DNA of 64,000 nucleotides from Escherichia coli (GCF_003334355.1 NZ_QOWP01000019.1); one strand, 5' to 3'; numbered from the stretch's first letter, positions 3,567-62,196 are shown. Numbers and translations are program-made. Notes: a model not told the origin generated them from the sequence alone.

Positions 3567-4856
3567 ATGGAAACGACTCAAACCAGCACGATTGCGTCGA
3601 AAGACTCTCGTAGTGCCTGGCGCAAGACAGACACCATGTGGATGCTGGGCCTTTACGGCACGGCAATCGGCGCGGGCGTGCTGTTCCTGCCAATCAACGC
3701 CGGTGTTGGCGGTATGATCCCGCTGATCATCATGGCTATCCTTGCGTTCCCGATGACGTTTTTTGCTCACCGCGGCCTGACTCGCTTCGTACTGTCTGGT
3801 AAAAACCCGGGCGAAGACATCACCGAGGTTGTAGAAGAACACTTTGGTATTGGCGCAGGTAAACTGATTACCCTGCTCTACTTCTTCGCTATCTACCCGA
3901 TCCTGCTGGTTTATAGCGTGGCAATCACCAATACCGTTGAAAGCTTCATGTCTCACCAGCTGGGTATGACGCCACCGCCGCGTGCGATTCTGTCGCTGAT
4001 CCTGATCGTGGGTATGATGACCATCGTTCGCTTCGGTGAGCAGATGATCGTTAAAGCGATGAGTATTCTGGTATTCCCGTTTGTTGGCGTACTGATGCTG
4101 CTGGCTCTGTACCTGATCCCGCAGTGGAACGGCGCTGCACTGGAAACGCTGTCTCTGGACACTGCATCTGCAACCGGAAACGGTCTGTGGATGACCCTGT
4201 GGCTGGCAATTCCGGTAATGGTGTTCTCGTTCAACCACTCTCCGATCATCTCTTCTTTCGCCGTTGCGAAGCGTGAAGAGTACGGCGATATGGCAGAACA
4301 GAAATGCTCGAAGATCCTGGCATTCGCACACATCATGATGGTGCTGACCGTAATGTTCTTCGTCTTCAGCTGTGTACTGAGCCTGACTCCGGCAGACCTG
4401 GCTGCGGCTAAAGAGCAGAACATCTCGATTCTGTCTTACCTGGCTAACCACTTTAACGCACCGGTTATCGCGTGGATGGCTCCGATTATCGCGATTATCG
4501 CTATCACCAAATCCTTCCTCGGTCACTACCTGGGCGCACGTGAAGGCTTCAACGGTATGGTGATTAAATCTCTGCGTGGTAAAGGTAAGTCTATCGAAAT
4601 CAACAAGCTGAACCGTATCACTGCGCTGTTCATGCTGGTAACGACCTGGATTGTTGCCACCCTGAACCCGAGCATCCTGGGTATGATTGAAACCCTGGGC
4701 GGTCCAATCATCGCGATGATCCTGTTCCTGATGCCGATGTACGCAATTCAGAAAGTACCGGCAATGCGTAAGTACAGCGGTCACATCAGCAACGTATTCG
4801 TTGTCGTGATGGGTCTGATTGCAATCTCCGCAATCTTCTACTCTCTGTTCAGCTAA
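3567..4856 (+). CDS. sdaC: Serine:H+ symporter SdaC (HAAAP family)
   Basis: 429-aa polytopic membrane ORF recognised as SdaC; preceded by a ggag RBS. Confidence 0.95.
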
Positions 4857-4913
4857 GTCCTTTCGCGCCGCTTTCGGGCGGCGCTTCCTCCGTTTTAACG
4901 CGATGTATTTCCT

Positions 4914-6281
4914 ATGATTAGCGTATTCGATATTTTCAAAATCGGCATTGGCCCTTCCAGTTCTCATACCGTTGGACCAATGAAAGCGGGTAAACAATTT
5001 ACCGACGATCTGATTGCCCGTAACCTGCTTAAAGACGTGACCCGCGTGGTGGTTGACGTGTACGGCTCGCTCTCTCTGACCGGTAAAGGCCACCACACTG
5101 ATATCGCCATTATTATGGGCCTGGCGGGTAACCTGCCGGATACCGTGGATATCGATTCCATCCCTGGTTTTATTCAGGATGTGAATACTCATGGTCGCCT
5201 GATGCTGGCAAACGGTCAGCATGAAGTGGAGTTCCCGGTTGATCAGTGCATGAACTTCCATGCAGACAACCTTTCTCTGCATGAAAACGGTATGCGCATT
5301 ACCGCGCTGGCGGGCGATAAAGTCGTTTACAGCCAGACTTACTACTCTATTGGCGGTGGCTTTATCGTTGATGAAGAGCATTTTGGCCAGCAGAATAGCG
5401 CACCGGTTGAAGTTCCTTATCCGTACAGTTCAGCAGCCGATCTGCAAAAACATTGTCAGGAAACCGGGCTGTCACTCTCTGGCCTGATGATGAAAAATGA
5501 GCTGGCGCTGCACAGCAAAGAAGAGCTGGAACAGCACCTGGCGAACGTCTGGGAAGTCATGCGCGGCGGTATTGAGCGCGGTATTTCTACCGAAGGCGTG
5601 TTGCCTGGCAAACTGCGCGTACCACGCCGTGCTGCGGCACTACGCCGGATGCTGGTCAGCCAGGATAAAACCACCACTGACCCGATGGCGGTTGTTGACT
5701 GGATCAACATGTTTGCACTGGCAGTGAACGAAGAGAACGCCGCTGGCGGTCGCGTGGTGACTGCGCCGACTAACGGTGCGTGCGGGATTATCCCGGCTGT
5801 GCTGGCGTACTACGATAAGTTTATCCGCGAAGTGAACGCTAACTCACTGGCTCGTTACCTGCTGGTAGCCAGCGCCATTGGTTCTCTTTATAAGATGAAC
5901 GCGTCAATTTCTGGTGCTGAAGTCGGCTGCCAGGGTGAAGTTGGTGTGGCGTGCTCAATGGCGGCGGCTGGTCTGGCAGAACTGTTAGGTGCAAGCCCGG
6001 CGCAGGTGTGCATCGCGGCGGAAATCGCCATGGAGCACAACCTCGGTCTGACGTGTGACCCGGTCGCCGGACAGGTCCAGGTGCCATGCATCGAGCGTAA
6101 CGCCATTGCGGCAGTAAAAGCGGTGAACGCCGCACGTATGGCGCTACGCCGTACCAGCGAGCCGCGCGTCTGCCTCGATAAAGTTATCGAAACCATGTAC
6201 GAAACAGGTAAAGATATGAACGCCAAGTACCGCGAAACCTCTCGCGGCGGCCTGGCAATGAAGATCGTTGCCTGCGATTAA
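4914..6281 (+). CDS. sdaB: L-serine dehydratase 2 (iron-sulfur)
   Basis: 455-aa ORF recognised as SdaB, directly downstream of sdaC. Confidence 0.95.
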   Translation: MISVFDIFKIGIGPSSSHTVGPMKAGKQFTDDLIARNLLKDVTRVVVDVYGSLSLTGKGHHTDIAIIMGLAGNLPDTVDIDSIPGFIQDVNTHGRLMLANGQHEVEFPVDQCMNFHADNLSLHENGMRITALAGDKVVYSQTYYSIGGGFIVDEEHFGQQNSAPVEVPYPYSSAADLQKHCQETGLSLSGLMMKNELALHSKEELEQHLANVWEVMRGGIERGISTEGVLPGKLRVPRRAAALRRMLVSQDKTTTDPMAVVDWINMFALAVNEENAAGGRVVTAPTNGACGIIPAVLAYYDKFIREVNANSLARYLLVASAIGSLYKMNASISGAEVGCQGEVGVACSMAAAGLAELLGASPAQVCIAAEIAMEHNLGLTCDPVAGQVQVPCIERNAIAAVKAVNAARMALRRTSEPRVCLDKVIETMYETGKDMNAKYRETSRGGLAMKIVACD

Positions 6282-6392
6282 TCGCTCTCCAGAGGCCTCG
6301 TTTTGCGAGGCCTCTTCCCGATTTCTCATCCAGCCGTAGCCTGTTCCGGCATCGAATGTTACCCTTATCGCCTGATCTTTAAGGGGGTTATC

Positions 6393-60713: not shown

Positions 60714-60785
60714 CACAACCTCGCACCAATTAACAGTGCAATAGTAAATGATTGTTAATTACAGTTATCTTAATTGTTTAAAAAA

Positions 60786-60801
60786 AGTGATTTTTATCAC
60801 A
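60786..60801. promoter_or_regulatory. CRP-like site aGTGA-N6-TCACA upstream of yqeF
   Basis: agtgatttttatcaca, centred about 80 bp upstream of the yqeF start codon. Confidence 0.4.
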
Positions 60802-60966
60802 AAGGAAATATGCCTGAGCAGTAGTCAGAGTCATAACTGGCACGTAAGGTTTGCAACCACTAACCCACCAATAGAGGGGTAGATAGGCGTTAATCTCCCA
60901 TACTTAACCTGGTTTATGGTAAATTGCCCTCCATTTTGTTTAATTTGTAGATGATACGTTCAGATA

Positions 60967-62196
60967 ATGTCTAATATTTGGTCTAAAGAAGAAACTCTGT
61001 GGAGTTTCGCGCTCTACGGCACAGCCGTTGGTGCAGGCACGCTCTTCCTTCCTATTCAGTTAGGTTCGGCAGGGGCTGTGGTCCTGTTTATTACTGCTCT
61101 GGTCGCCTGGCCTTTAACATATTGGCCACATAAAGCCTTATGCCAGTTCATCCTCTCATCGAAAACATCAGCAGGTGAAGGGATAACGGGCGCAGTAACA
61201 CACTACTATGGCAAGAAGATTGGTAATCTGATTACCACGCTGTACTTCATCGCCTTTTTTGTCGTCGTGTTGATATATGCAGTGGCAATTACCAACTCAC
61301 TTACGGAACAGCTGGCAAAGCATATGGTTATTGATCTTCGCATCCGTATGTTGGTGAGTCTGGGTGTTGTATTAATCCTGAATCTCATTTTTCTGATGGG
61401 ACGCCATGCAACCATTCGGGTAATGGGTTTTTTGGTATTCCCATTGATTGCCTATTTCTTATTTCTTTCCATTTACCTTGTCGGTAGTTGGCAACCTGAT
61501 CTATTAACGACCCAGGTAGAGTTCAATCAGAATACCCTTCACCAGATATGGATATCGATTCCCGTGATGGTTTTCGCCTTTAGCCATACGCCCATTATTT
61601 CTACGTTTGCCATAGACAGACGTGAAAAATATGGCGAACACGCTATGGATAAATGCAAAAAAATTATGAAAGTCGCTTATCTCATCATCTGCATAAGTGT
61701 ACTGTTCTTTGTCTTTAGCTGCCTGCTTTCTATTCCACCTTCGTATATTGAAGCGGCTAAAGAAGAAGGGGTCACCATTTTATCGGCGCTTTCTATGCTG
61801 CCGAACGCCCCAGCATGGCTGTCAATTTCCGGGATTATTGTCGCAGTAGTTGCGATGTCGAAATCATTCCTGGGTACGTACTTTGGCGTTATTGAAGGTG
61901 CCACGGAGGTCGTCAAAACAACACTACAGCAGGTTGGTGTAAAGAAAAGTCGTGCATTTAACCGCGCACTATCAATTATGTTGGTATCGCTGATCACCTT
62001 CATTGTTTGTTGCATTAACCCGAACGCGATTTCGATGATTTACGCGATCAGCGGCCCGCTCATTGCCATGATACTTTTCATCATGCCTACGTTGTCAACG
62101 TATCTGATCCCGGCGCTTAAACCCTGGCGTTCCATCGGAAATCTGATTACGCTGATCGTGGGTATCCTGTGCGTATCGGTAATGTTCTTTAGCTGA
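60967..62196 (+). CDS. yqeG: HAAAP-family transporter YqeG (paralog of SdaC)
   Basis: 409-aa polytopic ORF sharing conserved blocks with SdaC (IPVMVFAFSHTPIISTFA, LFFVFSC). Confidence 0.9.
   Translation: MSNIWSKEETLWSFALYGTAVGAGTLFLPIQLGSAGAVVLFITALVAWPLTYWPHKALCQFILSSKTSAGEGITGAVTHYYGKKIGNLITTLYFIAFFVVVLIYAVAITNSLTEQLAKHMVIDLRIRMLVSLGVVLILNLIFLMGRHATIRVMGFLVFPLIAYFLFLSIYLVGSWQPDLLTTQVEFNQNTLHQIWISIPVMVFAFSHTPIISTFAIDRREKYGEHAMDKCKKIMKVAYLIICISVLFFVFSCLLSIPPSYIEAAKEEGVTILSALSMLPNAPAWLSISGIIVAVVAMSKSFLGTYFGVIEGATEVVKTTLQQVGVKKSRAFNRALSIMLVSLITFIVCCINPNAISMIYAISGPLIAMILFIMPTLSTYLIPALKPWRSIGNLITLIVGILCVSVMFFS

What the first reader, a model, noticed from the sequence alone, without database searches (positions are those of the whole stretch)
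3567..62196. Paralogous HAAAP transporters sdaC and yqeG in one window
YqeG shares long conserved blocks with the serine transporter SdaC but sits next to the AT-rich island with no adjacent dehydratase. Its substrate is unknown and its codon usage is more AT-rich than that of sdaC.
Basis: seen in the sequence. Interest (0 to 1): 0.25.

Follow-up and report, generated by a model that had tools for sequence, protein, structure and literature searches.

The report
Known E. coli transporter paralogues sdaC, yqeG
The window is ordinary E. coli chromosome carrying the serine importer gene sdaC and, 57 kb away, its already-catalogued distant paralogue yqeG, a conserved, functional amino-acid transporter whose natural substrate is still unknown.

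Summary
The window is E. coli chromosome. sdaC (3567-4856, +) and yqeG (60967-62196, +) encode 429- and 409-aa proteins that are 39% identical over their full length (E 5e-102). Both belong to the serine/threonine branch of the HAAAP transporter family.

They are not each other's closest relatives. SdaC pairs with TdcC (53%). YqeG founds its own small Enterobacterales clade, with five invariant clade-specific residues in or next to the predicted substrate site.

yqeG is core genome, not part of the neighbouring AT-rich ETT2 type III secretion island:
- It is present in 99.3% of 5,426 E. coli genomes.
- Orthologues 73-92% identical keep the same yqeF-yqeG position across Enterobacteriaceae.
- dN/dS is about 0.02.
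- GC3 (0.50) lies within the local core range, against 0.26-0.38 for ETT2 genes.

The codon contrast arises mainly because sdaC has the highest GC3 of the 49 local core genes. No catabolic enzyme is linked to yqeG in any genus.

Published work (2023, 2025) already records the paralogy. It reports only weak multicopy suppression of a threonine-uptake defect, with no measurable uptake. Most likely YqeG is a proton-coupled importer of a small hydroxy or neutral amino acid, expressed at low level. Interest is low.

The parts
3567..4856 (+). sdaC, L-serine:H+ symporter (HAAAP family), 429 aa
   Evidence: ORF and translation. RefSeq annotation. TIGR00814 at 618.8 bits, above the 525.8 cutoff. Highest GC3 (0.665) and fewest rare codons (0.2%) of 49 local core genes.
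4914..6281 (+). sdaB, L-serine deaminase II, the catabolic partner immediately downstream of sdaC
   Evidence: ORF. Annotation.
59532..60713 (-). yqeF, acetyl-CoA C-acetyltransferase (thiolase), divergent core neighbour of yqeG
   Evidence: Annotation. NCBIfam thiolase models. Lies upstream of yqeG in about 70 of 80 Enterobacteriaceae loci.
60913..60966 (+). Conserved block upstream of yqeG, with an extended -10-like TGGTAAATT at 60917-60925; inferred to be yqeG's own promoter and 5' leader
   Evidence: Seven-genus alignment with many invariant columns, conserved whether or not the PACE/LysR pair lies upstream. Sequence read. Promoter function is inferred; the strict consensus scan did not call it.
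60967..62196 (+). yqeG, HAAAP-family amino-acid transporter of unknown substrate, 409 aa
   Evidence: ORF and translation. 39% identity to SdaC. PF03222 at E 4e-11. TIGR00814 at 516.0 bits, just below the 525.8 cutoff. AF2 model with pLDDT 91.9 and LeuT-type broken TM1 and TM6. Present at >=80% coverage in 5388 of 5426 E. coli genomes. dN/dS 0.016-0.021.
62207..62251 (+). Terminator-like hairpin (16-bp stem, 3-nt loop) followed by a T-rich tail, 10 nt after the yqeG stop codon
   Evidence: Consensus scan. Function is inferred.
62252..62655 (.). AT-rich spacer (GC about 0.29-0.32) marking the start of the ETT2 island
   Evidence: Composition profile. RpoS, RpoH, RpoE and HusR SELEX peaks are reported in the yqeG-yqeH spacer (PMC5493296, PMC12844172).
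62656..63288 (+). yqeH, LuxR-type regulator, first gene of the ETT2 island
   Evidence: Annotation. GC3 0.336. The stretch reaching into yqeH is covered at >=80% in only 4113 of 5426 genomes.

Best explanation
sdaC and yqeG are two anciently diverged paralogues of the HAAAP family (TC 2.A.42, APC/LeuT-fold superfamily). They lie 57 kb apart by chance, on core E. coli chromosome.

sdaC is the well-known, highly expressed L-serine:H+ symporter, co-transcribed with the serine deaminase gene sdaB.

yqeG is a vertically inherited, functional, monocistronic core gene of Enterobacteriaceae. It happens to form the left flank of the ETT2 insertion site. Its product is an 11-helix LeuT-fold carrier. It most likely works like SdaC and TdcC: substrate and a proton bind at the unwound segments of TM1 (G18-G24) and TM6 (A204-T208), and alternating access moves them inward.

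The YqeG clade carries five fixed substitutions in or next to these segments and in TM8 (T25, A204, S206, T208, T304). Its preferred substrate is therefore probably a small hydroxy or neutral amino acid related to, but not identical with, L-serine or L-threonine. Threonine would be only a weak side substrate.

The gene is poorly expressed in laboratory media, which matches its ordinary, unbiased codon usage. It is induced in nutrient-rich plant extract.

Shown here: homology, fold, conservation, purifying selection, core-genome status and composition. Inferred: proton coupling, direction of transport, the pocket role of the clade-specific residues, and the promoter and terminator.
For: - Homology: 39% identity over 415 aa, E 5e-102. 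Both proteins hit TIGR00814 and PF03222.
- Paralogue matrix and trees: SdaC-TdcC 53%, YqeG-SdaC 39%, YqeG-TdcC 31%, aromatic branch about 15%. YqeG groups with P0121 at 100% bootstrap, and with P0122 and P0149 at 88%, beside the large SdaC/TdcC group.
- Fold: the AF2 model has pLDDT 91.9 and pTM 0.90, with helix breaks at residues 20-23 and 204-208. Its best PDB matches are the APC-fold amino-acid transporters AdiC, SLC7A10, BasC and ApcT, at TM-scores of 0.65-0.74.
- Clade-specific residues: T25, A204, S206, T208 and T304 are invariant in 80 of 80 orthologues. The SdaC/TdcC group has mostly I/V, S, N, S and H at these positions.
- Core status: present in 5388 of 5426 E. coli genomes, against 4113 for the stretch reaching into yqeH. 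Orthologues are 73-92% identical and hold the same yqeF-yqeG position in Salmonella, Citrobacter, Enterobacter, Klebsiella and others, which lack ETT2 there. One Escherichia lineage keeps yqeG after losing both flanks (L008).
- Selection: dN/dS 0.016-0.021, the same as yqeF, kduI and kduD.
- Composition: GC3 0.502 lies within the core range of 0.384-0.665. ETT2 genes are 0.26-0.38 and sdaC is the top outlier. GC3 of the orthologues tracks their neighbours.
- Own transcription signals: a conserved upstream block and a terminator-like hairpin.
- Literature: yqeG is a weak multicopy suppressor of a threonine-uptake defect and is grouped with SdaC/TdcC (PMC12003319). It is induced by log2 3.2-4.0 together with sdaC and sdaB in lamb's-lettuce medium in three EHEC strains (PMC6729007). 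RNA-seq base mean is only 24 in M9 glucose (PMC9068703).
Against: - No transport activity has ever been measured for YqeG. Overexpression gave no detectable threonine uptake, and the authors allow an indirect effect.
- YqeG scores just below the curated cutoff of the serine/threonine-transporter model (516.0 against 525.8).
- The N206 and H304 residues of SdaC and TdcC are only majority states in their group (24 and 25 of 39), so they are not proven specificity determinants.
- The pocket assignment rests on helix breaks in a predicted model, not on coordinates or a solved HAAAP structure. None exists by sequence search.
- The NJ trees give weak support for some deep nodes: 53% for YqeG+SdaC+TdcC in the 8-protein tree, and 44% for a deep node in the larger tree.
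- No genomic neighbour hints at a substrate.
Confidence: 0.78

Rival explanations
1. YqeG has a dedicated physiological substrate outside L-serine and L-threonine. Candidates are D-serine, homoserine, a cysteine-like compound, or a plant- or gut-derived non-proteinogenic amino acid. The weak threonine phenotype would then be mere promiscuity.
For: - Five clade-invariant substitutions lie in or next to the unwound TM1 and TM6 segments and in TM8.
- YqeG forms a separate, long-branched clade.
- It scores sub-threshold for the Ser/Thr model.
- No measurable threonine uptake was found.
- The gene is strongly induced in plant extract.
- The related CyuP was renamed from a putative serine carrier to a cysteine importer in the K-12 annotation.
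Against: - The core motifs GTAxGAG, the TM3 Y..TN motif and the TM8 G...G..E motif are shared with SdaC and TdcC.
- Multicopy yqeG does rescue a threonine-uptake mutant.
- No neighbouring enzyme points to another substrate in any of 80 loci.
Confidence: 0.3
2. yqeG is a redundant back-up serine transporter, a relatively recent duplicate of sdaC kept nearby on the chromosome.
For: SdaC is the closest E. coli paralogue of YqeG (39%). The two genes are 57 kb apart. They are co-induced in lettuce medium.
Against: - SdaC is much closer to TdcC (53%) and to many other cluster representatives than to YqeG.
- YqeG's clade is sister to the whole SdaC/TdcC group.
- Synonymous sites between genera are saturated and orthologues exist across the family, so the split is old.
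- A pair of paralogues this close is expected by chance 22-50% of the time.
- Deleting yqeG gave no phenotype, whereas deleting sdaC did.
Confidence: 0.08
3. yqeG belongs to, or arrived with, the AT-rich ETT2 island, which would explain its AT-richer codons.
For: - It lies directly beside the island, and its overall GC (0.450) is below the window mean of 0.509.
- One review counts yqeF and yqeG as what is left 'in ETT2' in some E. albertii strains (PMC11068852).
- yqeG lies in the genomic fragment used as an H-NS-silenced domain (PMC12460168).
Against: - It is present in 99.3% of E. coli genomes, against 76% for the segment reaching into yqeH.
- It is conserved at the same yqeF-linked position in genera without ETT2.
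- Its GC3 of 0.50 compares with 0.26-0.38 for island genes.
- The GC drop begins only after its stop codon.
- GC3 of the orthologues tracks their neighbours.
Confidence: 0.02
4. yqeG is a decaying, functionless relic.
For: Expression in laboratory media is very low. Deletion gives no phenotype. Occasional strains carry an IS1 insertion or a truncation (H21 and H45).
Against: - dN/dS is about 0.02.
- The ORF is intact at 409 aa in 76 of 79 orthologues, with 189 invariant positions.
- The gene is retained when both flanks are deleted (L008).
- It is inducible.
Confidence: 0.02

Closest known systems
SdaC (E. coli L-serine:H+ symporter, TC 2.A.42.2 branch)
   Same: Same family and sub-branch. 39% identity over the full length, similar size, and shared TM1 GTAxGAG and TM6 F-x-F...S motifs.
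   Different: SdaC is co-transcribed with the serine deaminase gene sdaB, is highly codon-biased and passes TIGR00814. YqeG is monocistronic with no linked enzyme, is unbiased and scores sub-threshold. It carries T25, A204, S206, T208 and T304 where SdaC has V, S, N, S and H.
TdcC (threonine/serine:H+ symporter of the tdc operon)
   Same: Same Ser/Thr branch. 31% identity to YqeG.
   Different: TdcC is SdaC's true sister (53%) and sits in the anaerobic tdcABCDEFG operon next to the threonine dehydratase gene tdcB. YqeG scores 214.5 bits against the 645 cutoff of the TdcC equivalog model.
CyuP (YhaO) and YhjV, the other non-aromatic E. coli HAAAP paralogues
   Same: Same family and fold. YhjV, like YqeG, is an orphan with no linked enzyme.
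   Different: Only 19-22% identical to YqeG. They form a separate clade with 100% bootstrap support.
P0121-type transporter (metagenomic Enterobacterales-like contigs; metG | transporter | Zn-peptidase gene)
   Same: Nearest relative of YqeG outside its own 50% cluster: 42% identity and a 100% bootstrap sister. It shares S206, H207, T208 and T304.
   Different: It has a different genomic position and again no adjacent catabolic enzyme. It is uncharacterised.

Membership tests
HAAAP family (TC 2.A.42; Pfam PF03222 Trp_Tyr_perm) | Significant match to the family profile | tested here: met
   YqeG hits PF03222 at E 4e-11 over residues 16-378. PF03222 is also precomputed for the orthologues.
HAAAP family (TC 2.A.42; Pfam PF03222 Trp_Tyr_perm) | Full-length homology to characterised members (SdaC, TdcC, TyrP, Mtr, TnaB) | tested here: met
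   39% to SdaC (E 5e-102), 31% to TdcC and 15-17% to the aromatic members, in one alignable family.
HAAAP family (TC 2.A.42; Pfam PF03222 Trp_Tyr_perm) | About 400-450 aa with 11 transmembrane helices in an APC/LeuT fold with discontinuous TM1 and TM6 | tested here: met
   409 aa. The AF2 model has pLDDT 91.9, with helix breaks at 20-23 and 204-208 and 11 long helices. Foldseek top hits are AdiC, SLC7A10, BasC and ApcT, probability 1.00, TM-scores 0.65-0.74.
HAAAP family (TC 2.A.42; Pfam PF03222 Trp_Tyr_perm) | Proton-coupled uptake of a hydroxy or aromatic amino acid | not testable with these tools
   Only indirect published data exist: weak multicopy suppression of a threonine-uptake defect, with no measurable uptake (PMC12003319).
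Serine/threonine transporter subfamily (NCBIfam TIGR00814 'stp') | Score at or above the curated cutoff (525.8 bits) | tested here: not met
   YqeG scores 516.0 bits, marginally below. SdaC scores 618.8 and passes.
Serine/threonine transporter subfamily (NCBIfam TIGR00814 'stp') | Phylogenetic placement with SdaC and TdcC rather than with the aromatic or CyuP/YhjV branches | tested here: met
   The NJ trees place YqeG's clade beside the SdaC/TdcC group, within a 93%-supported node that excludes the aromatic branch. Exact branching within that node has only 44-53% support.
SdaC/TdcC orthologue (enzyme-linked catabolic carrier) | Passes an equivalog model or shows high identity | tested here: not met
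   The TdcC equivalog NF010152 gives 214.5 bits against a 645 cutoff. Identity is 39% to SdaC and 31% to TdcC.
SdaC/TdcC orthologue (enzyme-linked catabolic carrier) | Adjacent, co-oriented deaminase or dehydratase gene | tested here: not met
   The neighbours are yqeF (thiolase), and in other genera LysR+PACE, rcnR-rcnA or others. No dehydratase appears in the flanks inspected in detail (Salmonella, Enterobacter, the P0121 loci), and the E. coli neighbour probes found none across the 80 loci.
ETT2 genomic island | Presence or absence covaries with the island | tested here: not met
   yqeG is in 5388 of 5426 genomes, against 4113 for the stretch reaching into yqeH. It is also present in genera and Escherichia lineages that lack ETT2.
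ETT2 genomic island | Island-like base composition | tested here: not met
   yqeG GC3 is 0.502, against 0.26-0.38 for seven ETT2 genes. The GC drop starts after the yqeG stop.

The most novel reading that the evidence does not exclude
The YqeG clade is a distinct Enterobacterales-specific HAAAP subfamily. Its fixed pocket substitutions (T25, A204, S206, T208, T304) would tune it to a substrate that is neither L-serine nor L-threonine. Candidates are a plant- or gut-derived small hydroxy-, thio- or D-amino acid. This would explain its strict conservation despite showing no laboratory phenotype.
Probability: 0.3. Interest if true: 0.3.

Novelty: already known. Interest (0 to 1): 0.12.

Why it matters
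YqeG is one of the remaining 'y-genes' of E. coli K-12 with no assigned substrate. Knowing what it carries would close a small gap in the map of amino-acid uptake. It could also matter for engineering serine or threonine producer strains, where residual re-uptake lowers yield (PMC12003319). The sequence analysis here adds nothing that changes the field's view. It does show that the gene is core, functional and a distinct subfamily, and it names five residues worth mutating. The co-location with sdaC and the position next to ETT2 carry no special meaning.

Tried and rejected
- Solved structures: a sequence search of the PDB with YqeG gave no hit, so no HAAAP template was available and pocket residues could not be mapped on an experimental structure.
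- Genomic context as a clue to substrate: no catabolic enzyme is linked to yqeG in 80 Enterobacteriaceae loci, or to its nearest relative P0121.
- The PACE/LysR pair: this pair lies between yqeF and yqeG in most genera. I considered it as a functional partner and rejected it as evidence. yqeG keeps its own conserved upstream block with or without the pair, and Escherichia lacks the pair with no remnant.
- Promoter scan: the strict sigma-70 consensus scan found no promoter upstream of yqeG, and the number of promoter-like sites was no higher than in shuffles.
- dN/dS between genera: dS was saturated for most intergeneric pairs, so only the Escherichia sp. and Citrobacter comparisons were usable.
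- Horizontal-transfer reading of the AT-rich codons: rejected on the distribution and GC3 data.
- Rfam: nothing was found near either gene.
- Tree method: only neighbour-joining trees were possible, as no maximum-likelihood program is installed. Some deep nodes are weakly supported.
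Full report
**1. What is there**

The window is Escherichia coli chromosome. Megablast of both ends finds 100%-identical matches in RefSeq E. 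coli genomes. These are annotated ppnN-sdaC-sdaB-xni at one end and kduD-kduI-yqeF-yqeG-yqeH at the other. The gene order matches K-12 MG1655.

BLASTP aligns them end to end at 39% identity and 64% positives, with E 5e-102. tblastn with all eight E. coli family members finds no further copy in the window.

**2. Family placement**

Both proteins hit NCBIfam TIGR00814 'serine/threonine transporter'. SdaC passes (618.8 bits against a cutoff of 525.8). YqeG falls just short at 516.0 bits. YqeG also hits Pfam PF03222 at E 4e-11.

I fetched the other E. coli K-12 HAAAP paralogues (TdcC, CyuP, YhjV, Mtr, TnaB, TyrP) and computed an identity matrix and NJ tree:
- SdaC-TdcC: 53%
- YqeG-SdaC: 39%
- YqeG-TdcC: 31%
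- CyuP-YhjV: 45%
- Any of these against the aromatic carriers: about 15%

So the two genes are genuine paralogues of one sub-branch, but they are not each other's nearest relatives.

An exhaustive HMMER scan of 1.84 billion cluster representatives found only 498 related clusters (E <= 0.001). All YqeG orthologues collapse into one 50% cluster. The nearest full-length outsider, P0121, is 42% identical. Nearly every other representative is closer to SdaC than to YqeG.

In a bootstrapped NJ tree, YqeG and P0121 group at 100%. With P0122 and P0149 they form an 88% clade beside the large SdaC/TdcC group. P0121 sits on Enterobacterales-like contigs (asmA-dcd-apbC-metG | P0121 | Zn-peptidase, gluconate 2-dehydrogenase), again without a catabolic partner.

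**3. Is yqeG part of the AT-rich island?**

No. Four lines of evidence agree.
- Composition boundary: the GC drop to about 0.30 starts at about 62200, after the yqeG stop. The genes beyond it are the ETT2 type III secretion island.
- Distribution in E. coli: yqeG alone is present at >=80% coverage in 5388 of 5426 complete genomes. The segment that reaches into yqeH is present in only 4113.
- Distribution in other genera: orthologues 73-92% identical occur in Salmonella, Citrobacter, Enterobacter, Klebsiella, Kluyvera, Raoultella and others. In about 70 of 80 loci they lie next to yqeF. The downstream side is variable: rcnR-rcnA in Salmonella, ETT2 in Escherichia, and actS a few hundred bases to a few kb downstream in some lineages. 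One Escherichia lineage (L008) has araE-yqeG-actS, so it lost both flanks but kept yqeG.
- Selection: dN/dS is 0.016-0.021, indistinguishable from yqeF, kduI and kduD. Among 79 orthologues, 76 are exactly 409 aa, and 189 positions are invariant.

**4. Codon usage**

GC3 is 0.502 for yqeG against 0.665 for sdaC, and rare codons make up 4.2% against 0.2%. The contrast is driven mainly by sdaC.

Among 49 core genes of the region, sdaC has the highest GC3 and yqeG ranks 7th lowest. yqeG sits beside yqeF (0.472) and far from the seven ETT2 genes (0.26-0.38). In other genera the GC3 of yqeG tracks, or slightly exceeds, that of its neighbours, with a median paired difference from yqeF of +0.03. The pattern fits a strongly expressed gene compared with a weakly expressed one, not a native gene compared with a foreign one.

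**5. Anatomy and likely mechanism**

An AlphaFold2 model built on an 80-sequence alignment is confident (pLDDT 91.9, pTM 0.90). It shows 11 long helices, with breaks at residues 20-23 (TM1) and 204-208 (TM6). Foldseek against the PDB returns APC/LeuT-fold amino-acid transporters (AdiC, SLC7A10, BasC, ApcT) at TM-scores of 0.65-0.74 and 10-16% identity. No HAAAP member has a solved structure detectable by sequence.

By analogy with that fold (established knowledge), substrate binds at the unwound TM1 and TM6 segments. The TM1 motif G-T-A-x-G-A-G is shared by the whole branch. The YqeG clade is invariant (80 of 80) for T25, A204, S206, T208 and T304. The SdaC/TdcC group has mostly I/V, S, N, S and H at those positions. 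This argues for a related but not identical specificity. It is an inference, not a demonstration.

yqeG looks monocistronic. A block of about 55 bp just upstream of the ATG is conserved across genera and includes an extended -10-like TGGTAAATT. A 16-bp-stem hairpin with a T-rich tail follows the stop codon.

**6. Literature**

- The paralogy is already recorded. yqeG was retrieved by tblastn with SstT or TdcC as queries in 2023 (PMC10070963).
- In 2025 yqeG was found as the weakest of eight multicopy suppressors of a threonine-uptake defect. No uptake was measurable and deletion gave no phenotype. The authors' tree groups it with SdaC/TdcC and calls its physiological function 'not established' (PMC12003319).
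- Its RNA-seq base mean in M9 glucose is only 24 (PMC9068703).
- It lies in the fragment used as an H-NS-silenced domain (PMC12460168).

**7. Verdict**

However, this is a known pair of paralogues in the best-studied bacterial genome. Their presence in one 64-kb window is expected by chance 22-50% of the time.

The remaining open point, YqeG's natural substrate, cannot be settled from sequence. The most useful new detail here is a testable one: the clade-specific residues, and a conserved promoter block suitable for reporter screens.

Noticed in passing
L012 6437-7300 (-) and 7380-7859 (+); the same position in 55-57 of the 80 loci L008-L087: In most Enterobacteriaceae, a divergent AceR-like LysR regulator and a PACE-family efflux transporter (NF033665, 210.7 bits against a cutoff of 165) lie between yqeF and yqeG. 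Escherichia and a few other genera lack the pair. The window shows no remnant, only a clean 250-bp spacer.
   Followed up: partly
window 22725-22801: The window has a single initiator tRNA-Met gene where K-12 MG1655 has the three-copy metZ-metW-metV array. The sdaC-to-yqeG distance is correspondingly 218 bp shorter than in MG1655.
   Followed up: partly
window 60913-60966: A block of about 55 bp immediately upstream of the yqeG start codon is conserved across seven genera. It includes TGGTAAATT (an extended -10-like element) and a T-rich run. It is a possible promoter and leader with an unidentified regulator.
   Followed up: partly
window 62207-62251: A perfect 16-bp-stem hairpin with a T-rich tail lies 10 nt after the yqeG stop, at the boundary with the AT-rich ETT2 island. 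It is likely an insulating terminator.
   Followed up: no
hits H21 (NZ_CM134209.1) and H45 (NZ_CP088131.1) to window 60967-62196: yqeG is split by an IS1A insertion in strain 204 and reduced to its first 180 bp in strain 81. These are rare natural knock-outs that could be phenotyped.
   Followed up: no
L008 5592-10424 (Escherichia sp. MOD1-EC7003): The gene order is araE-yqeG-actS. Both kduD-kduI-yqeF and the whole ETT2 region are absent, yet yqeG is retained at 99% identity.
   Followed up: no
window 18034-18239; 51221-51308 and 51424-51505; 21255-21297: Rfam finds the known sRNAs GcvB (a regulator of amino-acid transporters), OmrA and OmrB, and ES036. None lies adjacent to sdaC or yqeG.
   Followed up: no
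window 3567-4856: sdaC has the highest GC3 (0.665) and almost no rare codons (0.2%) among 49 core genes of the region. This is stronger bias than its operon partner sdaB (0.605, 1.3%).
   Followed up: partly
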